Shown one piece after another: positions 6,292-61,690 of a stretch of 64,000 nucleotides of DNA; the stretch's first letter is position 1; the number at the start of each line of letters is the position of its first letter. The notes beneath the pieces were generated by a model that had not been told where the DNA came from, searched no databases, and saw only the letters and a program-made list of their open reading frames with translations. Source of the stretch: a virus; IMG/VR virus record IMGVR_UViG_3300035182_000826, positions 32,001-96,000 of that record; one strand, written 5' to 3'. A program made the translations under genes and the position numbers.

Positions 6292-6906
6292 ATGAATCTG
6301 TACAAGTACCATGAGAAGCCAACATCACTGCTACACCATGGCATAGCTCATGACTCAGTTCCATTATTATTATGGGAGAAGTACAAGGGCAATAGGACAC
6401 AGCTGAAGAAACGAGAACACGTGATTGCTACAAGTGCAAAGTACTCGTATGAGTACGCGAAAGATGTCCTCAATGGCCCATTTCCGGCTGGCAAAGCCGT
6501 AATTGCAAGAGACTCATATTTTGCATACCTTTACGCAAGAGATGTTCTTCATGGCCCATTTCCGGCTGGCGAAGCCGCAATTGCGAAGGACACACAATAT
6601 GCCTACCTTTACGCAAGAGATGTCCTCAATGGCCCATTTCCGGCTGGCGAAGCCGTAATTGCGAAGGACACACAATTTGCCTATTATTATGCCAAGGATG
6701 TTCTAAAAGAACCATGGCCAAAGGGAGAGGACGCGATTGCGAAGACACCAGCATCTGCATACATGTACGCGAGAGCTGTCCTCAATGGCAGGTTTCCAAA
6801 AGGAGAAGCCGCAATTGCGAAGGACCCAAACTTAGCACATGTGTACGCAAGAGAAGTTCTCAATGCCGACTTCTATTATGATGGTAAGTTAGTTGGAAAT
6901 AAATAG
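6292..6906 (+). CDS. 26-aa tandem repeat protein, family copy 1
   Basis: Leader MNLYKYH..P..LLH...AHDSVP then repeats AKDxxYAYxYARDVLxGPFPxGEAxI. Confidence 0.85.
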   Translation: MNLYKYHEKPTSLLHHGIAHDSVPLLLWEKYKGNRTQLKKREHVIATSAKYSYEYAKDVLNGPFPAGKAVIARDSYFAYLYARDVLHGPFPAGEAAIAKDTQYAYLYARDVLNGPFPAGEAVIAKDTQFAYYYAKDVLKEPWPKGEDAIAKTPASAYMYARAVLNGRFPKGEAAIAKDPNLAHVYAREVLNADFYYDGKLVGNK

Positions 6907-18561: not shown

Positions 18562-18704
18562 TTCTTTGCCTTTGCAATCAACTTACCATCGTGGTAGAAG
18601 TCAGGTTGCGTAGGCCTGGTTGGACGCGGCCTCACCTTTTGATCAAGGACCGATGATGCAATTGTCACTTCACCTTTAGGAAATGGCCGGACATCTTTGT
18701 AGAG
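18562..18704 (-). pseudogene. Deleted relic of the 26-aa repeat gene
   Basis: Minus strand reads fragments YKDV, PFPKGEVTIA, KGEAA, DFYHDGKLIAK matching family repeats and C-terminus. Confidence 0.7.
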
Positions 18705-25937: not shown

Positions 25938-26317
25938 TAGACGATCGGGGTAATTGGATTAGTCGGCACTGTTCGTGTGCTTGTGTACCCACCAAGTCGG
26001 CCTTGCATTAGCTGTTGTGCTCTTGACTTGGTTGGAATACGAAGAACTCGACCAACTGAAACCTCCTGTTCAGGATCAAGAATTGCGTTGTACTGAGCAA
26101 TTAGCCACCACATTGACCACTTGTCTTCTCCATAGTAAGCAGCTGCAATCAGATCGATTCTGCCTGCAGTTAGTGAATCCACAACATAGATCAAATCAGT
26201 TTCATCAGTCTGGAACTGGGTTCTCTCCCACCATTCCAATGCTGAACTGTTCACCTCGGTCTGGCCACCAGCTGTATACCGTGACGATGAAAGTAAAGTT
26301 GAGTTCTTTTCAGCCAT
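25937..26317 (-). CDS. gp53: Baseplate wedge subunit (gp53/LysM-like)
   Basis: GRIDLIA..YYG....WWLIAQYN.I.DP.....G..LRIP. Confidence 0.75.
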   Translation of the reverse strand: MAEKNSTLLSSSRYTAGGQTEVNSSALEWWERTQFQTDETDLIYVVDSLTAGRIDLIAAAYYGEDKWSMWWLIAQYNAILDPEQEVSVGRVLRIPTKSRAQQLMQGRLGGYTSTRTVPTNPITPIV

Positions 26318-26697
26318 TATTTATTTCCACGAGGTGTGAGGTGTTTCTTCCAATCTGGGTCACCTAAGAATTTTCCGTATTCAAATGAGAACCCGTTGCT
26401 CTTCGCGATTGCTGGTTCGCCAGGTGGCCATCTGCCCTTGATGACATTTTTAACATAAAGATATGCACACACGGAACTTTTTGCAATCGTGTCTTCGCCC
26501 TTTGGAAATGGGCCGTGGAGGACATCTGTAGCATAAAGATATGCATACACTGGGTCTTTTGCAAGCGCATTTTCCCGCTTCTTCAGCTCACTTGGGTTAT
26601 TCTTATATTTCTCCCAAACCAATTTTGGCACAGCTTCATGCGCCGCGTCATAATGCTTAAGAGACTTTGGGTCTGAATGGTGCTTGTAGATGTTCAT
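26317..26697 (-). CDS. 26-aa tandem repeat protein, short family copy
   Basis: MNIYKHHSDP..L.HYDAAHEAVP leader; AKDPVYAYLYATDVLHGPFPKGE repeats; inserted in the baseplate operon. Confidence 0.85.
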   Translation of the reverse strand: MNIYKHHSDPKSLKHYDAAHEAVPKLVWEKYKNNPSELKKRENALAKDPVYAYLYATDVLHGPFPKGEDTIAKSSVCAYLYVKNVIKGRWPPGEPAIAKSNGFSFEYGKFLGDPDWKKHLTPRGNK

Positions 26698-37469: not shown

Positions 37470-37625
37470 CCTTCTAATTTGACACCTTTTCTTAAGTGCA
37501 GCGCGTCTTAGGCGATAGAGCACACCCTCGGCGACACCGGTGAGGCCCGGCTCACGCCGGACAGTTCAGCCAATAAGTTATGCACGGCACTTAGCCGAGG
37601 CGAGCCGGTGTCGCCTCGTGTCGCC
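37470..37625 (-). repeat. Palindromic element (flop centre)
   Basis: Same arms and tail as 18321-18485 but centre 37561-37594 is the reverse complement. Confidence 0.9.
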
Positions 37626-37639
37626 AAGGGTAACAGGCG

Positions 37640-37698
37640 CGGCGGCCTCGCCTTTTAGAAACGGGCCATTAAGAACCTTTCGCGCATACCAAAATGAG
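37640..37698 (-). pseudogene. Relic of a 26-aa repeat unit
   Basis: Minus strand reads SFWYARKVLNGPFLKGEAA. Confidence 0.65.
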
Positions 37699-38013
37699 TA
37701 ATGTGCGGTTCTTGCAATTGCATCTTCACCTTTTGGCTATGGTCCTTTGATGAAGTCTCTTGCATGCAAGTGCACTTTCATGCTGATCACTCCACCCAAC
37801 GAGTGTCACACCAAGATGATCTCACCTTTTCTTTGGCAGCGTTTTGGTTACTTGCGCTACAGAGTCGGCAAGAGGCTGGTGTGACTGGTAATCGACTGTG
37901 GCGACCCCGAACTCGGGGAACACGCCCTTCATGTGCTAGAACGACAGATGTGTCTGGTTCAAGCCATAGATGAAAACGATCGTTTGGCTCATGCCCGTAT
38001 CGGGCCACGGCGG

Positions 38014-38200
38014 TCACCGCGGATTGTGACCCCAGATCTTGAGTGACAGCGGCTTTCGGGTTGGCTCGCCGTTCTCGTCGTACAGCGCACCTGAGTTCCC
38101 CTTCATGCGTGACACAAAGGCACATTGCTTGCCAGCCCACTTCCACATCTCTGGCGTCCACTGCTCGACAGGAGTGCGCTTCATCTTGACGATCCACTCA
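38014..38200 (-). pseudogene. C-terminal fragment resembling DUF3140
   Basis: WT.....F.SRM....TR..LSLKIWGHNP; 5' end replaced by the end of the repeat-gene cassette. Confidence 0.45.
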
Positions 38201-38223
38201 GATCCATCACTTCTCCTTTGCAA

Positions 38224-38727
38224 TCAGTTTACCTTTAGGACATCTTTTGCATACAAACGGGCATAATCTGGGTCTTTCGCAATTGCGGCTTCGCCTTTAG
38301 GAAATGGCGCCTTTAGGACATCTCTCGCGTAGAAATACGCATAATATGAGTCTTTCGCAATTGCGGCTTCGCCTTTAGGAAATGGCGCCTTTAGGACATC
38401 TCTCGCGTACCAATACGCATACTTTGGGTCTTTCGCAATTGCGCCCTCGCCTTTAGGAAATGGCGCCTTTAGGACATCTCTCGCGTACGCAAATGCAAAC
38501 CCTGGGTCTTTCGCAATGGCGGCTTCGCCTTTAGGAAATGGCGCCTTTAGGACCTCTACCGCGTACGCATATGCATACTCTGGGTCTTTCGCAATTGCGT
38601 CCTCCCTCTTCTTCATCTCTTCTGGGTTGTTCTTGTACTTCTCCCAGATGAATTCAGGAACGGAATCATGAGCTGCATCATAATGCAGCAAGGTCTCAGG
38701 TTGTGAATGGTATTTGTACAGATACAT
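38224..38727 (-). CDS. 26-aa tandem repeat protein
   Basis: MYLYKYHSQPETLLHYDAAHDSVPEF leader plus about 5 near-identical 78-bp repeats. Confidence 0.88.
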   Translation of the reverse strand: MYLYKYHSQPETLLHYDAAHDSVPEFIWEKYKNNPEEMKKREDAIAKDPEYAYAYAVEVLKAPFPKGEAAIAKDPGFAFAYARDVLKAPFPKGEGAIAKDPKYAYWYARDVLKAPFPKGEAAIAKDSYYAYFYARDVLKAPFPKGEAAIAKDPDYARLYAKDVLKVN

Positions 38728-38751
38728 TTTAGTTTTCCAACTAGGTTCAGA

Positions 38752-38925
38752 TTAGAAGTCAGCAGCCTCGCCTTTAGGAAATGGCGCCTTTAGGACTTCT
38801 CTCGCGTACAAACGCGCATACCTTGTGTCTTTCGCAATTGCGTCCTCCCTCTTCTTCATCTTTTCTGGGTTCTTCTTGTACTTCTTCCAGATCAATTCAG
38901 GAATAGAGTCATGAGCTGCATTATG
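38752..38925 (-). pseudogene. 5'-truncated repeat-protein gene
   Basis: AAHDSIPELIWKKY...one repeat...GEAADF stop; leader replaced by unrelated GC-rich sequence. Confidence 0.7.
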
Positions 38926-39140
38926 TCCTTGATCAGGCGCACTCGATCGGTGGGATGTACCCATCACGAACGGCACCGCGCGAGAAGCGGCCGATCATGA
39001 CGTCGTTCTCGTAGATCTCGCCCTTGAGGGCTGGGCCAGCGCTTGTCCTTGCCCCTGTACGTCAGCTGTCGTTCAGGTCCAATGTCAGAAACGTTCAACA
39101 TTGTGGCAGCTTCACGCTATACTTGTGTGGCGCGACGCTG

Positions 39141-39506
39141 TCACTGGGTGTGTGGCTTACCTTCAGCCAGCCGCTTCTTGGCCTTCTCAGCCTTCAGCTT
39201 TGCCTTCACTGTTTCAAGCTTTTGCTTGTCTTCAGCTGATAGGTTCTTTCCGGCGCGGTTGATGTAAAAGTTCAAGCGCGACATTGCTTGTGCTTCAGAT
39301 TCACTGTTGCTACGAAGCGTCTTCGCGATCTCATCCGCTGACTTTGTGAAAAGCCCTTCTGGTGGTGTCCACTTCGTGTCAACATCAGCGCTCCATTGCT
39401 TTTCAGCGAGGATTTCTCTGGCGCGTTCAGTGATGTACTGCTTTGCTAGCTCAGAGGCGTTACCCTCATTGATGATTACGTTCACTACGTCTTTCAACAT
39501 GGTCAT
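39141..39506 (-). CDS. Protein resembling DUF3175
   Basis: WSA.V, IA..L, AMS.LNFYINRAGKNL. Confidence 0.7.
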   Translation of the reverse strand: MTMLKDVVNVIINEGNASELAKQYITERAREILAEKQWSADVDTKWTPPEGLFTKSADEIAKTLRSNSESEAQAMSRLNFYINRAGKNLSAEDKQKLETVKAKLKAEKAKKRLAEGKPHTQ

Positions 39507-41341
39507 TCTCCTTGAGGGTTTTGAGTTGATTGAGGTGTCTGTGATGATTGGGTTGTCTGTGATGATTGGGGTGTTTGTGATGATTGGGGTGTTTGTGATG
39601 ATTGAGGTGTCTGTGATGATTGGGTTGTCTGTGATGATTGGGTTGTCTGCTTTGTGCCAGCTGTGATAATTGATGTCAGCGCCCGAATTTTCTGTAGGAT
39701 TACTCCAGGGCTGGTAAGTGTTTGCTTCTTAGCACGAAGCGCCGTGACCAACTGAGTCTTTTGGTAATTCAAATTCGCGTCTGGCACTCCAAGCACTGAC
39801 AACAATGATGAGATGGCTTGGAAGTATGTATCAGTTCCGAGCCGCACATCTTCAGTGACAGGCTCAATTGATGTTGACGCTGAAATGTTCAATCTGCTTG
39901 CAAGGCGTCTGAGCAGCATTTCCAACGAGGGGTCATCCTCAATTGACAATGCGACACGGCGAAGGAATGTGTTCACGACAGCTGGGCCACCTTGAACAAC
40001 GAGTTCCTCTGGCAAGCCAAGCTTAACAAGGATAGCTTCAAGCAAACGTTGAACAGCATCTCCGCGGCGATGATTAGCTGCTTCACTCAACTCAAACCCT
40101 GCCTCTTTTCCAAGTGCCTTGTACAAATTGATGAACGCTGTCTTCGCTGCCGCGTGCTGGCGAAGGTATTCAGCACCAGCAGTAACAGAATCGGCTGCAG
40201 CAGCAGTGTTGTAGAAGCGTCCAGGAATTCCAACTAATTGGAAGAACGCAGCAATTTGCTTTGCCATAGGCAACTTCAGACGAGAAACAAAGGCACGACC
40301 CTGAGCGTCAAGCTTCATTGACAGCCCGTCGCGAACGCCATCACTCAAGTCATTCGCTTCTCTGATCAATGATTCCTCAAGTTGCGGTTTTACTTCAAAA
40401 GTTGACTTAGCACCAATTACGTTCTTTTGCTTTGTGAGCTCAGCTGCCATGCGCTCAGCTTCTTCAAGTGATGGGTACTTCACAATTTTTCCTTCACGGG
40501 TGTACAGATACTCTTTCAGGCCATTTACGCCGCCAGAGCTCTTGATTTTTAGAACCCATTTCTTTGCGTTCAGCGCAGAGGCCATATGGGCTTTCACATC
40601 ATCCGATAGAGATTCCTTAACTTTAGCAGGCTTTTTTTCATCTGTTGAAGCTTCTTCCTCTCCTTCCTTCTTTTCCTTCTTCTTTTTCTTCTTGTCGTTT
40701 TCGTCTACTTCATCCTCATCTGATTCTTCATCAGTTTCGTCATCAGCTGTGTTAGGATTTGTTTTGTCGTCGTCATTAGGCGTCAACAACTTGTTTTCAA
40801 TAGGTTCCTCTGGGTTTAGTTCAGCGAGATCAGCACCAGAATCAAATGACGCGGCTGGTGAATCCTTGTCGATAAACGAATCAAGTTCAGGAGTGTCAAT
40901 GTTATCTTCATCACCGCTTTGCGCGACGCTCTGATCACCTTGCTCAGTTGGCCAAACCACATCAACAATGTCGAACTGTGTTGCCATCTGATTGATTGCG
41001 CTTTCGATGTCATTGTCCATGCCAAGCATGTTCGACAATGCCTTCTCAAACTCATCAGCTTCTTGCGCGTTCACATAGATTTCGATGTAGTCACCATTGT
41101 CAGTCTTGACAACGAAACCAACAGAATCAACTTGGTCATTCAGCTCAGCCGCACGCTCAAGATAGTTGTTCACATCAGAACCTGTGACGCTACCATCAGT
41201 GCCATGGTTGATCATGTTCCGCATCAATGAGAATCTAACATCAGACTTATTGGAAGCGGTGTCAGTTGAGCCAGCATCAGTTCCATCAGACATCTTGAGT
41301 TTGGTTTGAATGTGGTTTTCTAGTTCAGAAAGTAATTTCAT
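39503..41341 (-). CDS. Acidic hypothetical protein, possible internal head protein
   Basis: 612 aa with D/E and K tracts, several L/I-x-E sites, C-terminal QSSQT(P/T) repeats. Confidence 0.6.
   Translation of the reverse strand: MKLLSELENHIQTKLKMSDGTDAGSTDTASNKSDVRFSLMRNMINHGTDGSVTGSDVNNYLERAAELNDQVDSVGFVVKTDNGDYIEIYVNAQEADEFEKALSNMLGMDNDIESAINQMATQFDIVDVVWPTEQGDQSVAQSGDEDNIDTPELDSFIDKDSPAASFDSGADLAELNPEEPIENKLLTPNDDDKTNPNTADDETDEESDEDEVDENDKKKKKKEKKEGEEEASTDEKKPAKVKESLSDDVKAHMASALNAKKWVLKIKSSGGVNGLKEYLYTREGKIVKYPSLEEAERMAAELTKQKNVIGAKSTFEVKPQLEESLIREANDLSDGVRDGLSMKLDAQGRAFVSRLKLPMAKQIAAFFQLVGIPGRFYNTAAAADSVTAGAEYLRQHAAAKTAFINLYKALGKEAGFELSEAANHRRGDAVQRLLEAILVKLGLPEELVVQGGPAVVNTFLRRVALSIEDDPSLEMLLRRLASRLNISASTSIEPVTEDVRLGTDTYFQAISSLLSVLGVPDANLNYQKTQLVTALRAKKQTLTSPGVILQKIRALTSIITAGTKQTTQSSQTTQSSQTPQSSQTPQSSQTPQSSQTTQSSQTPQSTQNPQGE
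39528..39649. repeat. 18-bp coding tandem repeat (~7 units)
   Basis: GATTG(A/G)G(G/T)TGT(C/T)TGTGAT units. Confidence 0.9.
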
Positions 41342-43605
41342 TTTTTATCCTTGCGTGGATCTGGGTACTTGAGCAACATACGGTGAATGTTTGGGTTTCT
41401 CTTCCGTTTGATGATCTTGGAATTACCAAGGCGCTGTGGAAAAGTTGCGATGTTCGCGCTGGTGGTCATTGACGATGTGTTCATAGGCGCAGCATTTGAG
41501 GTGCTTGGGTCAACACCTGCGAAAGGCGCATCATCTTCCTCAGCGAGCTTTACCACATCACGCAAAAGACCTTCTTTGAGTGCCATTTGATTTTCTCCTG
41601 CGGTTGAGGCATTTAGCAACACGTTCTGCTGAATCACCTTAAACCGTCTGAATAGCTGACTGTTCCCGGCGTACTGCAGACCTAGCATGAACACCAAGTT
41701 CATTGCAGTGACTTTGTCTTCGAATGAAAGCTCAGCCCAATGTGGAACAAGACTGATCAACATATTTAGCTTTTGGTTTCCAATCCCAGACAGTCTCCAG
41801 AATCGATCTAGCATGAACTGATGATTCTTCCAATTAATGGAAACTTGCTTATCCCATGATAGCTCCAAGTGCATACGTCTCCAGAGAATGTCATTCACCT
41901 GAGAAGTCGCTCTCTTGATGATTCTCTTGGCATCCATCGACAATCCAATCTTTGGATCATTGAAATGCCAGATTGCGTAACCCCAGTGGTTCAACTCACT
42001 CATACCAACATCCCACTTCTTAAGATTTGAGAGATTATGGTTCCGCAGCTTTCTCATGCCAATGATGTCATGCTCTTGAATAATGATCATCGAAATGAAT
42101 ACGATTGTGAGGTACGTGCTGATCATCTGAACGCCGTCTTTGCCAGCGAAATCAGCGATTGCGATGTCATTTCTGAGAGTGTTCTTCTTGTGCGTTTTCT
42201 TCTTTGCTTCAGTAAGGCTTTCAAGTGCAAGCGCGTATCCACCAAAGATGACTGCAGCCAATTGAGCTGTGGTGGCCGTTTTTGAAATCTGGTCCCTTAA
42301 CCGTTGAACGCTCTTCTTTGCCTCAGCAAAGATTGTGAGTGTTCTTGCTATCACGTCCTTGCTCAGTGAGACCTCTGTGCCGTCAGAAAGCTTCTTCTTC
42401 AGTGTGCTGGATTTGCTCTTGAACTCAGCCAAGAGGTTTTCAATGTCAAGTCTAGCACGCTCTACGATTGCTAACGCATGCTTCTTTGTGGCTATGATGT
42501 CATTAGCAGTTCTTGACGCATCGGCGAACTGCTGAATAGTTCTGGCTGGAGTGTCACCTTTGAATTGTTCAAGGGCCTTCTTGGCATTGGCTGGCTTCGC
42601 CAGCTCACGGTTTCCAAACAGCTCAGCAAGCTTGATTCGCATTTCACCAATGATGCCACCGCGATCAATAAGATCAGCGTTCTCATCCGTGGTGGTCAGC
42701 CCTCCCTGAACCATGTTCCGATAGTACTGATTGAACTTGTTCATCTCAAGGAAGACACCCTTGTCCACAACCTTGATCTGCTCTCCATTTTCATCGCGTA
42801 GAACATACCCCTCAATAGGGCCTTTGCTGATCGAGTTTGGTTTTTTGGCGTTCAGTGCCTTTAGGAGTTCATCCTTGATTGGCAGTTTGTACTCTTCAAG
42901 AATCTGTCCAATCAATGCTTCTCTGAATTCCTTGAAGGCGTTCCGGCTCTCCTTAGGAATTTTGTTCAGTGATATGGTGAGCGTTTCACCATTTGTCATG
43001 CCCTGCTCATTTTGTGAATTCAGGAACTTTTGGAATTTGGACAGCAAGGTGTCATTGACCTTGATCTTACTTGCGTCAAGTTCAGCTGGTTCAATGAACT
43101 TGACGTCAAGATCCTTATCAACCACCTGAACTTCCTCTCCATCTGAGCTCTCAATTGCTTGAATTGACACGCTTACCTGGCGACCAGTCAACTTTGTCTT
43201 GAGCCTGTCAAAGTTCTCAGCGCTACCTTCAACTGGGCGCAGGAGGGCGACGTAGGACACCGGTTCCACTGAGTATGAAACACTATTAGGCTGTTCACCG
43301 TACAACACCTCGGCCTCACCGGTGTCGCCAGGGGATAGTGTCTCCAACACAATGTCCTTCACTTTTTCAAGAGCGGCATGGGCGGCCCTGAATTGATTGA
43401 AGTCACTAACTGGTGCCCAATCATCTGGACTGTACATCTTCTTGGCGCCATTTCTCTTGCCTTCACGTGACGTGAAGAATTGCCCTTCTTGATCAACGCC
43501 AAACCAGAGTTGAGCGCCATCAAGCTTCTCCTGAATCTGCATCGAGGAGATTTTCTTCACAAGGCTGATGAACTGTTCTGGCTTTAGGTCTTCAATGTGA
43601 ATCAT
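41338..43605 (-). CDS. Protein with N-terminal ligase-type nucleotidyltransferase domain (DUF6267-like)
   Basis: Motif I EKLDG, FFTSR, GEAEVL, motif IV EGYVL, motif V KVVDK; minus-strand TAAATA at 43626-43631. Confidence 0.65.
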   Translation of the reverse strand: MIHIEDLKPEQFISLVKKISSMQIQEKLDGAQLWFGVDQEGQFFTSREGKRNGAKKMYSPDDWAPVSDFNQFRAAHAALEKVKDIVLETLSPGDTGEAEVLYGEQPNSVSYSVEPVSYVALLRPVEGSAENFDRLKTKLTGRQVSVSIQAIESSDGEEVQVVDKDLDVKFIEPAELDASKIKVNDTLLSKFQKFLNSQNEQGMTNGETLTISLNKIPKESRNAFKEFREALIGQILEEYKLPIKDELLKALNAKKPNSISKGPIEGYVLRDENGEQIKVVDKGVFLEMNKFNQYYRNMVQGGLTTTDENADLIDRGGIIGEMRIKLAELFGNRELAKPANAKKALEQFKGDTPARTIQQFADASRTANDIIATKKHALAIVERARLDIENLLAEFKSKSSTLKKKLSDGTEVSLSKDVIARTLTIFAEAKKSVQRLRDQISKTATTAQLAAVIFGGYALALESLTEAKKKTHKKNTLRNDIAIADFAGKDGVQMISTYLTIVFISMIIIQEHDIIGMRKLRNHNLSNLKKWDVGMSELNHWGYAIWHFNDPKIGLSMDAKRIIKRATSQVNDILWRRMHLELSWDKQVSINWKNHQFMLDRFWRLSGIGNQKLNMLISLVPHWAELSFEDKVTAMNLVFMLGLQYAGNSQLFRRFKVIQQNVLLNASTAGENQMALKEGLLRDVVKLAEEDDAPFAGVDPSTSNAAPMNTSSMTTSANIATFPQRLGNSKIIKRKRNPNIHRMLLKYPDPRKDKK

Positions 43606-43686
43606 GAGAGCGGTTTCCTTTAGCCTATTTACAGCAGCAGATAAACGGATTTGTAAATAGTGAACGCCAGATCTTAGGCAAGAAAA

Positions 43687-43996
43687 ATGAACCTGTACTT
43701 CTTACACAGCAATCTAGCATCATTGCTTCATCATGAGGCCGCCCATGAGTCAATTCCTGAGCTCTTTTGGTATGACTACATTTTTGATATTCATGATTTG
43801 GACTGGTTAAAGAAGCGTGAAGGCGCCCTGCTAAGGATCCAAAGTTTGCATACCTATACGCAAGTATTGCGCTCAAAGCACCATTCCCAAAAGGCGAAGC
43901 TGCGATTGCAAAGACCACAACTTATTCAAAAGAGTATGCAAAAAAAGGTTCTTCATGCCGTACCATGATGGTAAACTGATTACGAAGGCGAAGTGA
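43687..43996 (+). pseudogene. Frameshifted repeat-protein gene
   Basis: Family leader, frameshift near 43829, then AKDPKFAYLYASIALKAPFPKGEAAIAK in another frame and a YHDGKLI terminus. Confidence 0.75.
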
Positions 43997-44532
43997 TGTA
44001 TCTGTACAAATACCATTCACAACCTGAGACCTTGCTGCATTATGATGCAGCTCATGATTCCGTTCCTGAATTCATCTGGGAGAAGTACAAGAAGAACCCA
44101 GAAAAGATGAAGATGAAGAAGAGGGAGGACGCAATTGCGAAACACCCAGGGTATGCATTTGTGTACGCGAGAGATGTCCTAAAGGCGCCATTTCCTAAAG
44201 GCGAGGACACAATTGCGAAAGACACAAGGTATGCATTTGCGTACGCGAGAGATGTCCTAAAGGCGCCATTTCCTAAAGGCGAGGGCGCCATTGCGAAAGA
44301 CACAAGGTATGCGTATTTGTATGCGAAAGAGGTCCTAATGGCGCCATTTCCTAAAGGCGAGGGCGCCATTGCGAAAGACCCAGAGTATGCGTATTTGTAC
44401 GCGAGAGATGTCCTAAAGGCGCCATTTCCTAAAGGCGAGGGCGCCATTGCGAAAGACTCATATTATGCGTATTTGTATGCGAAAGATGTCCTAAAGGCAC
44501 CATTTCCTAAAGGCGAGGCTGCTGACTTCTAA
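43993..44532 (+). CDS. 26-aa tandem repeat protein
   Basis: Leader plus 5 repeats of 78 bp; ends GEAADF. Confidence 0.88.
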   Translation: MMYLYKYHSQPETLLHYDAAHDSVPEFIWEKYKKNPEKMKMKKREDAIAKHPGYAFVYARDVLKAPFPKGEDTIAKDTRYAFAYARDVLKAPFPKGEGAIAKDTRYAYLYAKEVLMAPFPKGEGAIAKDPEYAYLYARDVLKAPFPKGEGAIAKDSYYAYLYAKDVLKAPFPKGEAADF

Positions 44533-44556
44533 TCTGAACCTAGTTGGAAAACTAAA

Positions 44557-45261
44557 ATGAATCTGTACAAGTACTATTCACAACCTAACACCTTGCTGCA
44601 TTATGATGCAGCTCATGACTCCGTTCCTGAATTGATCTGGAAGAAGTACGAGAACAACCCAGAAAAGATGAAGAAGAGGGAGGACGCAATTGCGAAACAC
44701 CCAGGGTATGCATTTGCGTACGCGAGAGATGTCCTAATGGCGCCATTTCCTAAAGGCGAGGACACAATTGCGAAAGACACAAGGTATGCGTATTTGTATG
44801 CGAAAGAGGTCCTAAAGGCGCCATTTCCTAAAGGCGAAGCCGCAATTGCGAAAGACCCAGAGTATGCGCGTTTGTACGCGAGAGAAGTCCTAAAGGCGCC
44901 ATTTCCTAAAGGCGAGGACGCAATTGCGAAAGATCCAGGGCCTGCATTTGGGTACGCGAGAGATGTCCTAAAGGCACCATTTCCTAAAGGCGAGGCTGCA
45001 ATTGCGAAAGATCCAGAGTATGCGTATTGGTACGCGGTAGATGTCCTAATGGCGCCATTTCCTAAAGGCGAAGCCGCAATTGCGAAAGACCCCATGAAAT
45101 CATATTTGTACGCCAGATTCGTGATTAGGGGCCGTTGGCCTAAAGGTGAAGCCGCGATTGCAAAGAGCCAAACGCAATCACAACTCTACGCAACCTACGT
45201 GCTCCACGGTGACTTTATCCTGAATGGGAAAACAATTTACAAAATGAACAAGGAATCATGA
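44557..45261 (+). CDS. 26-aa tandem repeat protein
   Basis: Leader plus 6-7 repeats with a divergent capping repeat. Confidence 0.88.
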   Translation: MNLYKYYSQPNTLLHYDAAHDSVPELIWKKYENNPEKMKKREDAIAKHPGYAFAYARDVLMAPFPKGEDTIAKDTRYAYLYAKEVLKAPFPKGEAAIAKDPEYARLYAREVLKAPFPKGEDAIAKDPGPAFGYARDVLKAPFPKGEAAIAKDPEYAYWYAVDVLMAPFPKGEAAIAKDPMKSYLYARFVIRGRWPKGEAAIAKSQTQSQLYATYVLHGDFILNGKTIYKMNKES

Positions 45262-45614
45262 TGTTCAAAACACTACGCATGCTAACTGAAGCCTTTTCAG
45301 CATTGGAGGCAATTCCAAATAGTTACCTTGATGAATTCAAGGTCAAGGAGCCATCATACGGCCCCGCGCTGATGGCAAAACATGAAGGGTCAGCTTCGCA
45401 TAAGGACACAATCATTGTTGTTGGCATCATTGAAGACCCTGAAGATGAGGATCTACCATTAGCAGTGATGATGAAATCTGATTGGGATGGCATCATCCAT
45501 GAGAAGTTCTTCAATGACACTAAGGATGGTTACAAAGCTGCGTTGGATTATGCGAACATTCTGCGCACGGCCAATCTGACACGTGGTGGCAAGCCAAAAG
45601 GTTGGAAAGACTAA
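45258..45614 (+). CDS. Hypothetical protein
   Basis: ATGA overlap; MMFKTLRMLTEA leader. Confidence 0.55.
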   Translation: MMFKTLRMLTEAFSALEAIPNSYLDEFKVKEPSYGPALMAKHEGSASHKDTIIVVGIIEDPEDEDLPLAVMMKSDWDGIIHEKFFNDTKDGYKAALDYANILRTANLTRGGKPKGWKD

Positions 45615-45619
45615 AAAAA

Positions 45620-45752
45620 GAATCTGTACAAGAAGAGGGAGAACGCAATTGCGAGGACGCAAAGTATGCGTATTAGTACGCGAGAGATGTCCTAGGGGCG
45701 AAGCCGCCATTGCATGATGGTAAACTGATTGCAAAAGGCTGCTGACTTCTAA
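45620..45752 (+). pseudogene. Deleted relic of the repeat-protein gene
   Basis: Concatenated pieces AATCTGTACAAG, AAGAGGGAG, GCAATTGCGA, TACGCGAGAGATGTCCTA, GGCGAAGCCGCCATTGC, GATGGTAAACTGATTGC, GCTGCTGACTTCTAATC. Confidence 0.8.
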
Positions 45753-60364: not shown

Positions 60365-61690
60365 TGCGCATTAGCCGCGCGGGTTCAACGCGGGCCGGCG
60401 ACACGAGGCGACGCCGGCTCACCTCGACTAAGTGCTGTGCATAACTTATTGCCCGCACTGTCCGGTGTGAGCCGGACCTCACCGGTGTCGCCGAGGTGGT
60501 GCTCTATCGCTTAAGGCGAGCTGCACTTAAGCAAAGGTGTCAAATTAGGTGGTGTTCTTTGTGGTAAGGTGTTCTTTGTTTGTGTGCAGTGTGCGCAGAG
60601 CGCATTAGCCGACGAATAGCGGGTTCAATGGATTCTTCAATGGATTCTTCAATGGATTCTTCATTGGAGAGAGGTGATCAGTTCTTCATTGGAGTCAGTC
60701 ATAGTCGCTCTCACAGCGCGTGCTCATAGAGCGCATTAGCCGACGAATAGCGGGTTCAACGGGTTCGTAGGTGACCAGTTCTTCAGGTTCTTCATTGGAG
60801 TGAGGGTGGTGCTCTTAGTGGTGAGGCGTACACAGAGCGCATTAGCCGACGAATAGCGGGTTCAATGGGTTCAATGGGTTCAATGGGTTCAATGGATTCA
60901 ATGGATTCAATGGATTCAATGGATTCAATGGATTCAATGGATTCAATGGATTCAATGGATTCAATGGATTCAATGGATTCAATGGATTCAATGGATTCAA
61001 TGGATTCAATGGATTCTTCATTGGAGTAGGTGGTCAGTTCTTCAGGTTCTTCATTGGAGTAGGTGGTGTTCTTTGTGTTTGTGTGTGGTGCTCATAGAGC
61101 GCATTAGCCGACGAATAGCGGGTTCAATATCATCCGGCGACACGAGGCGACGCCGGCTCACACCGGACAGTACAGCCAATAAGTTATGCATAGCACATAG
61201 CCGGTGTGAGCCGGACCTCACCGGTGTCGCCGAGGCTGTGCTCTATCGCTTATGGCGAACTGCACTTAAGAAATGTGTCAAATTAGGTGGTGTGCTCACA
61301 GTGCGCGCTCATAGAGCGCATTAGCCGACGAATAGCGGGTTCAATGGATTCTTCATTGGAGTAGATGATCAGTTCTTCATTGGAGTGGGGGTCAGTTTTT
61401 GTGGTGAGGCGTTCACAGAGCGCATTAGCCGACAGATAGCGGGTTCAATGGATTCTTCAACAAGTTCTTCATTGGAGTGGGTGGTCAGTTGCTCACAGTG
61501 CAGTGTGCGCAGAGCGCATTAGCCGACGAATAGCGGGTTCAATGGATTCTTCACGCAGTGTGTACACAGAGCGCATTAGCCGAGCACCACCTCGGCGACA
61601 CGAGGCGACGCCGGCTCACCCCGTATTAGCGACTCAATAAGTTATGCACCACATAGGCCCGGCAATTGCCGGGCCACCACCGGCAAAACC
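60365..61690 (+). repeat. Non-coding repeat complex: seven 32-bp direct repeats, three palindromic elements, 9-bp microsatellite; candidate origin
   Basis: AGAGCGCATTAGCCGACGAATAGCGGGTTCAA at 60597, 60728, 60834, 61096, 61313, 61417 (variant), 61511; palindromes at 60395, 61134, 61592. Confidence 0.92.
60864..61016 (+). repeat. 9-bp tandem repeat, 17 units
   Basis: (AATGGGTTC)3(AATGGATTC)14. Confidence 0.95.

What the first reader, a model, noticed from the sequence alone, without database searches (positions are those of the whole stretch)
38224..45752. Multicopy 26-aa repeat proteins with a fixed scaffold and a variable helix face: a possible phage repertoire of binding proteins
Seen: at least 10 copies in 64 kb. 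Intact at 6292, 26317, 38224, 43993, 44557; broken at 38752, 43687; relics at 18562, 37640, 45620. Each intact copy has a conserved leader (MxLYKYHxxPxxLLHYDAAHDSVPE) and up to about 7 repeats of 78 bp. In the 38-45 kb copies VLKAPFPKGExAIAK is nearly invariant at DNA level, while positions 2, 3, 6, 7 and 10 vary (DPEYAYAYAVE, DPGFAFAYARD, DPKYAYWYARD, DSYYAYFYARD, DPDYARLYAKD, DTRYAYLYAKE, HPGYAFVYARD, DPGPAFGYARD). Half-units such as DPE, DTR, DSY, YARL and YAYW recur in new combinations. Inference: spacing 3/6/7/10 is one face of a helix, rich in aromatic and charged residues, as in alpha-solenoid binders (HEAT, ankyrin, PPR/TALE logic). Repeat shuffling could reprogram specificity for host defence proteins or nucleic acids. 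I do not recognise a named family.
Basis: partly seen in the sequence, partly recalled or inferred. Interest (0 to 1): 0.88.

Follow-up and report, generated by a model that had tools for sequence, protein, structure and literature searches.

The report
Variable helical-repeat proteins of a jumbo phage
A giant phage carries five intact and several decayed genes for small helical-repeat proteins with a fixed scaffold and one fast-changing surface; they belong to a very large, unnamed phage family and are predicted to plug, through their shared front end, into one constant phage protein, which looks like a built-in set of interchangeable binders whose targets are still unknown.

Summary
The window is part of a 161-kb fragment of a roughly 350-kb jumbo myovirus. 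It has 5 intact genes (A 6292, B 26317, C 38224, E 43996, F 44557), 2 broken ones (38752, 43687) and 2-3 relics. All are built from a 43-aa leader plus 78-nt units.

AlphaFold models F as an alpha-solenoid (pLDDT 96.4) with a 7-residue and a 12-residue helix per unit. The variable positions lie on one face of the long helix. When sites are defined on unrelated family members, their dN is 2.2 times the overall dS. The scaffold has dN/dS 0.17, and the units are mosaic (PHI-like P=0.007).

No named family fits. The Pfam HTH_35 and SfsB hits are summed short-motif matches. The family is very large (6,489 clusters at 50% identity) but nearly absent from cultured phages.

New here: the leader and a fused 'GTxWC' domain are mutually exclusive N-termini (84 vs 60 of 250 proteins, none with both). 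This phage encodes that domain as a separate 255-aa protein outside the window. A complex prediction places the leader on its C-terminal helices (ipSAE 0.76, best control 0.00).

Targets and function are untested. This scan found the same family before on other phage DNA. The order of units inside the arrays is not confirmed by the short-read contigs.

The parts
6292..6906 (+). Gene A, 204 aa: 43-aa leader, 6 units, C-terminal cap. It starts 3 nt after the stop of the preceding gene.
18668..18698 (-). Possible relic of half a unit (weak).
   Evidence: nhmmer E 0.002
26317..26697 (-). Gene B, 126 aa: leader plus 2-3 units. It lies inside the baseplate operon with overlapping start and stop codons. 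The syntenic site of a related 277-kb phage (L001) has no such gene.
37644..37772 (-). Relic of about 1.6 units, with an in-frame TAG.
38224..38727 (-). Gene C, 167 aa: leader plus 5 units, the last truncated, and no C-cap.
38752..38976 (-). Cx, a truncated copy. The leader lacks its first ~46 nt, and there is one unit with an E-type ending (AADF*). With C it forms the inverted duplicate of E-F.
39141..43605 (-). Segment of about 4.7 kb between the inverted copies, with three genes: 121 aa (DUF3175), 612 aa (unknown), and 755 aa (KxDG motif, weak RNA-ligase hit).
43687..43968 (+). Dx, a broken copy: diverged leader followed by two frameshifted units.
43996..44532 (+). Gene E, 178 aa: leader plus 5 units, ending AADF*.
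44557..45261 (+). Gene F, 234 aa: leader, 7 units and a C-terminal beta-hairpin cap. This is the protein that was modelled. Its stop overlaps the start of a 118-aa gene.
45645..45722 (+). Relic of one unit.
   Evidence: nhmmer E 1e-12

Best explanation
These genes encode small cytoplasmic alpha-solenoid proteins of a very large, unnamed phage family.

Each 26-aa unit is a short helix (unit positions 22-2) and a long helix (positions 6-17). Conserved Y12, A13, V16, L17, F21 and G24-E25 build the stack. Positions 6/7, 10/11, 14/15 and 18 form one solvent-facing stripe along the long helices. That stripe is kept diverse by selection and by recombination between units and gene copies.

The shared 43-aa leader caps the solenoid. 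It most likely also docks the protein onto the C-terminal helices of one constant phage protein. That protein is the 255-aa 'GTxWC-domain' (distantly PcfJ-like) protein at G000:C1:9518-10285, about 22 kb before the window. Other phages fuse the same repeats covalently to this domain.

The system would therefore work as one constant hub plus a small repertoire of exchangeable binding arms. The most likely ligands are proteins of the host or of the infection process, such as takeover or counter-defence targets.

Shown: the gene anatomy, the site-specific excess of amino-acid change, the mosaicism, the family size, and the fusion, neighbourhood and mutual-exclusion pattern.

Predicted only: the fold and the hub-leader contact.

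Inferred: that the stripe is the binding surface.

Unknown: the ligands.
For: Fold:
- AlphaFold2 with 46 sequences gives pLDDT 96.4 and pTM 0.88. The model has regular 7- and 12-residue helices per unit, and the leader is folded (pLDDT 87-97).
- The Atlas's own model has pTM 0.78.

Variable face:
- Local entropy peaks at positions 6, 7, 10, 11, 14, 15, 18 and 26.
- In 392 units from 167 outside proteins the most variable positions are 11, 7, 8, 14, 15, 23 and 6. Y12, G24 and E25 are near-invariant.
- With these outside-defined sites, local dN is 0.36 against an overall dS of 0.167. The ratio is 2.16 (bootstrap 1.73-2.81), and the remaining sites have dN 0.057.

Shuffling.

Family:
- 6,489 representatives at E<=1e-3 and 1,347 at E<=1e-30.
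- The Atlas neighbour clusters are 80-100% viral (Uroviricota).
- Other phage contigs hold tandem arrays of 4 to about 28 genes.

Hub link:
- Of 250 family proteins, 84 have the leader, 60 have the hub domain fused, and none has both. Of the 93 proteins of <=260 aa, 75 have the leader.
- This phage encodes the hub as a stand-alone protein.
- A stand-alone hub gene lies directly beside leader-type repeat genes in L001, G001 (hub, then about 28 genes), L019, L033, L079 and L088. Fourteen of the 17 neighbouring repeat ORFs have the leader.
- Complex prediction of hub plus F: ipSAE 0.76, 0.51 and 0.77 in three runs, with a best control of 0.00. In the tool's calibration this mark was reached by 58 of 80 solved complexes and 2 of 110 mismatched pairs, and those counts hold only roughly with my own alignments. 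Partner pLDDT is >=89 and the runs share >=70% of contacts. The interface is hub residues 204-250 against F residues 1-26 and 43-47, which is the leader, so the variable stripe stays free.
- The hub fold recurs in phage proteins fused to other repeat types: WG_beta_rep, DUF4116 and LRV.
Against: - No experiment exists for any family member, and the ligands are unknown.
- The complex pass may only reflect the fused forms that exist in sequence databases. It is then a likeness to the fusion, not proof that the split proteins bind. The alignments were my own and unpaired.
- The hub family is much wider than the repeats. Of 119 hub loci, 108 have no unit fused or nearby.
- One complete 479-kb phage has leaderless repeat genes and no hub.
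- In this phage the hub and the repeat genes are 28 kb or more apart.
- Exposure of the variable residues was not computed on coordinates.
- A dN/dS above 1 among paralogous units can be inflated if gene conversion lowers dS.
- Several copies here are decaying (Cx, Dx, relics), so not every copy is needed.
- The internal order of units is not confirmed by the short-read contigs.
Confidence: 0.55

Rival explanations
1. Sequence-reading nucleic-acid binders. Each unit would read one base of DNA or RNA through its 2-4 variable residues, as in TALE, PPR or PUF proteins.
For: - The units are modular, with few hypervariable positions on one helix face.
- The proteins are mildly basic, pI 7.7-9.4.
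- PUF domains appear among the weak fold matches (Z 4.2-5.5).
Against: - There are only 3-7 units per protein.
- The variable face holds many acidic and aromatic residues. In outside units it is E 9%, D 8%, Y 12%, against K+R 25%.
- The net charge is small.
- The fold matches are at chance level for helical repeats.
- The variable positions take more than 15 residue types rather than a small code.
Confidence: 0.12
2. Virion-associated or injected proteins. The hub would anchor the solenoids in the particle, so that they are delivered with the DNA or displayed on the virion.
For: - The PA5oct homologue of the hub's N-half (41% identity, E 5e-39) is annotated 'structural protein, ESI-MS/MS'. The PA5oct paper reports 93 virion-linked products (PMC7318152).
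- Copies A and B sit in structural operons and are translationally coupled.
Against: - PA5oct gp205 lacks these repeats.
- Copies C, E and F and the hub gene lie among DNA-metabolism genes.
- The leader is predicted to be folded, not a cleavable tag.
- No proteome exists for any member.
Confidence: 0.2
3. Winged-helix transcription regulators of the Ner/Nlp (Pfam HTH_35, SfsB) type, as automatic annotation names many relatives.
For: - Whole-protein scores of 26.6-42.7 bits against a cut-off of 25 for HTH_35.
- An SfsB hit at E 6e-8.
- A hit to phrog_769, 'transcriptional repressor'.
- JGI names such as 'lambda repressor-like regulator'.
Against: - No single stretch passes on its own (0 stretches).
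- Only profile positions about 19-49 of 75 are matched, once per unit, so the score is a sum of a short WPKGE..IA-like motif.
- The SfsB score is 32.7 bits against a cut-off of 150.
- The model is a solenoid, not an HTH domain.
Confidence: 0.02
4. Programmed diversification by a dedicated machine: a diversity-generating retroelement, or a shufflon-type invertase acting on the inverted clusters.
For: - Variation is site-focused.
- Two inverted clusters flank a 4.7-kb segment.
Against: - No reverse transcriptase, serine recombinase or tyrosine recombinase occurs in the 161 kb held. That is only about 45% of the genome.
- The substitutions are not restricted to adenines.
- No inversion joint appears in the contigs of four runs, although those contigs break inside the arrays.
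- Ordinary homologous recombination explains the mosaics.
Confidence: 0.05
5. Assembly artefact. The arrays or their unit order would be a product of collapsing or chaining near-identical 78-nt repeats.
For: All Logan short-read contigs end inside the arrays (38296-38613, 44025-44530, 44685-44890), and depth rises there.
Against: - Four runs hold 71-92% of the sampled words.
- Unique flanks and gene junctions are covered at 100% identity: 37526-38296 reaches into C, 39613-44025 reaches into E, and 44530-44685 bridges E to F.
- The reading frames are intact, and the family occurs in thousands of other assemblies.
Confidence: 0.06

Closest known systems
Designed and natural alpha-solenoid binders (HEAT/armadillo, LRV, Sel1/TPR, designed helical repeat proteins)
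   Same: Stacked helix-turn-helix units, N- and C-terminal caps, and a conserved core with a variable surface stripe. The best structural neighbours are of this kind: Atlas LRV/HEAT clusters at TM 0.55, and designed repeat proteins, HEAT and PUF at Z 5-6.
   Different: The unit is 26 aa with its own signature (IAxD..YA..YA..V(L/I)xG(P/R)(F/W)PxGE). No Pfam repeat model reaches its threshold. There is no significant solved-structure match.
TALE / PPR / PUF repeat codes
   Same: Near-identical units that differ at a few fixed positions on one helix, with units recombined between copies.
   Different: The units are shorter and fewer, the variable face is chemically mixed rather than basic, and no nucleic-acid link has been shown. 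See the first rival explanation.
[quoted passage not shown]
   Same: Multicopy paralogues in a jumbo phage. Relatives of this family form arrays of 4 to about 28 genes.
   Different: Here the copies are few, dispersed and partly decayed, and two clusters are inverted. The review does not describe this repeat family or a hub partner.
Phage proteins with the GTxWC (distantly PcfJ-like) N-domain, e.g. Pseudomonas phage PA5oct gp205 and Salicola phage SCTP-2 gp435
   Same: The same N-domain as this phage's stand-alone hub. SCTP-2 gp435 carries two units of this repeat after it.
   Different: PA5oct gp205 has a different C-terminal half. The window's proteins lack the domain and carry the leader instead. 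The Pfam PcfJ model does not detect the hub.
Ner/Nlp (Pfam HTH_35, NCBIfam SfsB)
   Same: A short helix-loop-helix motif resembling ...WPKGE..IA...
   Different: The fold and architecture differ, and it is not a member.

Membership tests
Unnamed 26-aa-repeat phage family (defined here by profile A1) | Tandem 26-aa units with near-invariant Y12, A13 and G24-E25 | tested here: met
   401 full-length units were found in 167 outside proteins with the window's unit profile.
Unnamed 26-aa-repeat phage family (defined here by profile A1) | N-terminus is either the 43-aa leader or a fused GTxWC domain | tested here: met
   All five intact window genes have the leader. Among the 250 relatives, 84 have the leader, 60 have the hub fused, and none has both.
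Alpha-solenoid structural class | Repeated antiparallel helix pairs stacked into an elongated superhelix | tested here: met
   Prediction only: AlphaFold2 pLDDT 96.4 with 18 regular helices, and the Atlas's own model at pTM 0.78.
Pfam HTH_35 / NCBIfam SfsB (Ner-Nlp regulators) | One domain-length match to the winged-helix profile above the curated threshold | tested here: not met
   No stretch passes alone, and only profile positions ~19-49 of 75 are matched. The SfsB score is 32.7 bits against a cut-off of 150.
Named helical repeats (HEAT, ARM, TPR, Sel1, LRV, ankyrin, PPR) | Profile match at the family's gathering score | tested here: not met
   The only hit is TPR_17 at 19.6 bits against a cut-off of 24.4 in one protein. 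Structural matches are generic.
TALE/PPR/PUF-type nucleic-acid code | One unit contacts one base, with a basic binding groove | not testable with these tools
   Only composition is available: pI 7.7-9.4 and a mixed acidic, aromatic and basic variable face.
Diversity-generating retroelement target | Reverse transcriptase plus a template repeat, with adenine-specific changes | tested here: inconclusive
   No RVT_1 match in the 161 kb held, which is about 45% of the genome. The changes are not adenine-specific.
Shufflon / invertible segment | Site-specific recombinase and both orientations present in the population | tested here: inconclusive
   No resolvase or integrase in the held part. No inversion joint was seen, but the contigs break at the repeats.
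PcfJ (PF14284), for the hub protein | Match to the Pfam model | tested here: not met
   No match at E<=10 in this phage's own genome and none at E<=1 for three hub domains. The only link is a language-model likeness of 0.91 to clusters where 17-33% of members carry PcfJ.

The most novel reading that the evidence does not exclude
A two-part, phage-encoded binder repertoire. One constant hub protein would accept, through a 43-aa docking leader, any of a set of small solenoid arms. The recognition stripe of those arms is diversified by selection and unit shuffling, giving the phage several specificities against variable host proteins (for example defence systems). Other phages hard-wire the same parts into single fused proteins or expand them to arrays of about 28 arms.
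Probability: 0.3. Interest if true: 0.85.

Novelty: new variant of a known kind. Interest (0 to 1): 0.62.

Why it matters
If the reading holds, this is one of the largest undescribed protein families of large phages: thousands of clusters, almost none in cultured phages, and none with a paper that I could find.

The family has the hallmarks of a natural binder library. It has a rigid, highly designable 26-aa scaffold, a short list of recognition positions under diversifying selection, and a predicted plug-in connection to a constant partner.

That makes three questions directly testable:
- What large phages use multicopy repeat genes for.
- Whether they target host defences.
- Whether the scaffold can be used as a new binder platform.

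It also corrects a widespread automatic annotation ('winged-helix DNA-binding', 'lambda repressor-like').

Tried and rejected
- Megablast of 36-47 kb against GenBank phages gave no match.
- tblastn of F and of the relative P0012 against 50,697 phage records gave no match. The family is close to absent from cultured phages, or too diverged for BLAST.
- phmmer of F against PDB sequences found nothing at E<=10.
- Foldseek of F against PDB found nothing better than E 0.1. VIA-align wide gave a best Z of 6.2, which is chance level for helical repeats.
- The weak Pfam hits to T4 Frd.3 (Phage_FRD3) in relatives were checked. The T4 protein shows only a short 'RYPE' resemblance, so I dropped it.
- Pfam scan of 81 longer relatives found no named partner domain beyond sporadic hits.
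- Hub fold: Foldseek E>0.5 and a VIA best Z of 5.5 to partial GNAT-like chains. No function could be assigned.
- The search for related loci with the 755-aa neighbour gene found no relatives.
- The genome search on L001/L002 failed because those records are not held.
- tRNA and Rfam scans of the window found nothing.
- Sequencing runs: the Logan contigs of four runs do not bridge the arrays. They therefore neither confirm the unit order nor test inversion of the 4.7-kb segment. The X4 variants at 44224 and 44228 fall on variable codons, but they may be a contig from another unit laid at 90% likeness, so I did not use them.
- Literature: there is no paper with the motif strings. Nothing on this family turned up in searches for jumbo-phage solenoid or paralogue terms or in the 2026 jumbo-phage review.
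- A capsid-targeting, cleavable-leader reading from earlier scan notes was considered. I found no evidence for it here, and the leader is predicted to be folded and to form an interface.
Full report
**What is there**

The window is bases 32001-96000 of a 161-kb IMG/VR viral contig that CheckV rates 45% complete. It encodes baseplate and virion genes, a gp46/SbcC-like nuclease subunit whose nearest cultured relatives are the jumbo phages Ralstonia RsoM2USA (38%) and Pseudomonas PA5oct (34%), and a PD-(D/E)XK nuclease. It is therefore a fragment of a roughly 350-kb myovirus. Four sediment and microbial-mat runs hold it.

- A, 6292-6906(+), 6 units
- B, 26317-26697(-), 2-3 units
- C, 38224-38727(-), 5 units
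- E, 43996-44532(+), 5 units
- F, 44557-45261(+), 7 units

Each begins with a 43-aa leader followed by 78-nt units. A DNA-profile search confirms the broken copies Cx (38752-38976) and Dx (43687-43968). It also confirms relics at 37644-37772 and 45645-45722. The relic near 18.6 kb is weak (E 0.002). The rest of the contig has no further copy.

[Cx-C] is an inverted duplicate of [E-F]: 616 nt at 87% identity, with identical 45 nt upstream of C and F. The two clusters flank about 4.7 kb with three genes.

**Fold**

AlphaFold2 on F with 46 aligned relatives gives pLDDT 96.4 and pTM 0.88. The model has an N-terminal cap of short helices (the leader, pLDDT 87-97). It then has seven units, each a 7-residue helix (unit positions 22-2) and a 12-residue helix (positions 6-17), and a C-terminal beta hairpin.

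No solved structure is close by sequence. Foldseek finds nothing better than E 0.1. An exhaustive structural scan gives a best Z of 6.2 to designed repeats, HEAT and PUF, which the tool's own notes rate as chance level for helical repeats. The fold is a generic alpha-solenoid with no named family.

**The database label is wrong**

Pfam HTH_35, NCBIfam SfsB and phrog_769 appear, but no single stretch passes its threshold. Only about 15-30 profile positions are matched, once per unit. The SfsB score is 32.7 bits against a cut-off of 150. The whole-protein score is a sum of a short WPKGE..IA-like motif. Many relatives carry names such as 'lambda repressor-like regulator' for the same reason.

**The variable face**

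Among the 17 units of C, Cx, E and F, entropy peaks at positions 6, 7, 10, 11, 14, 15, 18 and 26.

To avoid choosing sites after the fact, I took 392 distinct units from 167 unrelated family proteins. There the most variable positions are 11, 7, 8, 14, 15, 23 and 6, while Y12, G24 and E25 are near-invariant.

With these outside-defined sites, the 15 regular local units have dN 0.36 against an overall dS of 0.167. The ratio is 2.16 (bootstrap 1.73-2.81). All other codons have dN 0.057. With the locally chosen sites, dN is 0.48 and the scaffold dN/dS is 0.17.

On the 12-residue helix, positions 7, 11, 14 and 18 (with 6, 10 and 15 at the edges) lie on one side. The conserved A9, Y12, A13, V16 and L17 lie on the other. 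This follows from the DSSP register and helix geometry.

One caveat applies. Gene conversion among units can depress dS. However, conversion tracts cannot skip interleaved codons, so selection for diversity at the stripe is needed either way.

**Shuffling**

Half-units recombine. C2 and E2 have identical 3' halves behind different 5' halves. Cx1 joins an E3/F2-type 5' half to an F3-type 3' half. Fifty of 105 informative site pairs show all four gametes, and incompatibility rises with distance (PHI-like permutation P=0.007).

No reverse transcriptase, resolvase or integrase is present in the 161 kb held. Ordinary homologous recombination is therefore the simplest cause.

**The family**

A profile search of 1.84 billion representatives finds 6,489 clusters at E<=1e-3 and 1,347 at E<=1e-30. 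The neighbouring ESM Atlas clusters are 80-100% viral, commonest Uroviricota.

GenBank phages give essentially nothing. The exception is Salicola phage SCTP-2 gp435, which has two units.

Other large viral contigs hold tandem arrays. L008/G001 has about 28 genes, L002 has 8, L012 has 6, and L013 includes a 12-unit gene. A 2026 review mentions arrays of more than 30 similar genes in some jumbo phages but not this family (PMC13282480). No paper contains the motif strings.

This scan had already met the family on other phage DNA. I treated those notes as leads and re-tested what I use.

**The hub**

Many longer relatives carry an N-terminal domain with an invariant GTxWC motif.

Among 250 family proteins, 84 have the leader and 60 have this domain. 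None has both, and 75 of the 93 small proteins have the leader.

This phage encodes the domain alone, as a 255-aa protein at G000:C1:9518-10285, outside the window. It is 41% identical to the N-half of PA5oct gp205, which is annotated as a virion protein found by mass spectrometry.

In six other contigs a stand-alone hub gene sits next to leader-type repeat genes. In G001 it heads the array of about 28 genes. Fourteen of the 17 neighbouring repeat ORFs have the leader.

A complex prediction of hub plus F scores ipSAE 0.76, 0.51 and 0.77, against 0.00 for the best of three controls. In the tool's calibration this mark was reached by 58 of 80 solved complexes and 2 of 110 mismatched pairs, and those counts hold only roughly with my own alignments. 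Partner pLDDT is >=89 and the runs share >=70% of contacts. The contacts join hub residues 204-250 to F residues 1-26 and 43-47, which is the leader.

No similar complex has been solved. However, the fused forms exist in sequence databases, so the pass may reflect likeness to the fusion rather than independent evidence of binding.

**Limits on the hub reading**

- The hub family is far wider than the repeats. Of 119 hub loci, only 6 are fused to units and 5 have repeat neighbours.
- The hub's other C-terminal partners include coiled-coil regions and other repeat types: WG_beta_rep, DUF4116 and LRV.
- A complete 479-kb phage has leaderless repeat genes and no hub.
- The hub's own function is unknown. 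There is no solved-fold match. The Pfam PcfJ model does not detect it. Only a language-model likeness points to PcfJ-containing clusters.

**Assembly**

Contigs of four runs match the unique parts at 100%. They reach into C and E and bridge E to F. All of them end inside the arrays and show no inversion joint. The genes are therefore real, but the exact unit order and any inversion remain untested.

**Verdict**

The alpha-solenoid and variable-face reading is supported, and the shuffling is supported. Function and targets are open.

The most likely mechanism is a constant hub with exchangeable, diversified solenoid arms that bind proteins. Nucleic-acid reading, virion delivery and programmed diversification are less likely rivals.

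This window holds a small, dispersed and partly decayed representative of a very large, unnamed phage family.

Noticed in passing
window 26317-26697 compared with L001:5594-7162: Gene B sits between a baseplate-wedge-like gene and a virion-protein gene, with overlapping start and stop codons. In the related 277-kb phage these two genes are directly adjacent and its repeat genes lie elsewhere. Copies therefore seem to be inserted at gene boundaries like morons.
   Followed up: partly
window 41338-43605 (-): A 755-aa protein with an N-terminal EKLDG (KxDG nucleotidyl-transferase-like) motif. It has only a weak RNA_ligase hit (E 0.003), no PHROG family, and no relatives in viral contigs with the patterns used.
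   Followed up: partly
window 39503-41341 (-), tandem repeat 39527-39649: A 612-aa protein of no known family, with an acidic and lysine-rich middle. Its C-terminal tail is made of an 18-nt tandem repeat (about 7 copies, TQSSQ-like).
   Followed up: no
window 37500-37640: Summed contig depth is about 100x in three of the runs (18x in the fourth), against about 5-11x for the neighbouring phage sequence. The region 37.4-38.0 kb is GC-richer and has no convincing ORF, tRNA or Rfam match. One contig in run X1 joins 37560 to 38269, skipping 708 nt.
   Followed up: partly
window 60624-61553: A dense set of short tandem repeats: 9-nt TTCAATGGA x17 (60861-61016), a related 12-nt repeat (60624-60668), and a 94-nt unit x2 (61371-61553). 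These may be iterons or a regulatory region.
   Followed up: no
proteins P0125-P0127 (1464-2253 aa, metagenomic): Giant ORFs made of many concatenated [leader + units] modules, as if a whole gene array were read as one polyprotein. This could be real fusions or another genetic code.
   Followed up: no
window 38014-38223 (-) and 45258-45614 (+): The genes directly coupled to the ends of C (69 aa, weak DUF6321 hit) and F (118 aa, no family) differ from each other. The inverted duplication therefore ended at the repeat genes.
   Followed up: no
L018:306-1508 (G000:C1:7305-8507): Near the hub gene lies a 400-aa protein with a KxDG-type motif (MDKRDGSM) that looks like an RNA ligase. A DnaQ-like exonuclease gene follows the hub. 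The hub thus sits among nucleic-acid enzymes, not structural genes.
   Followed up: no
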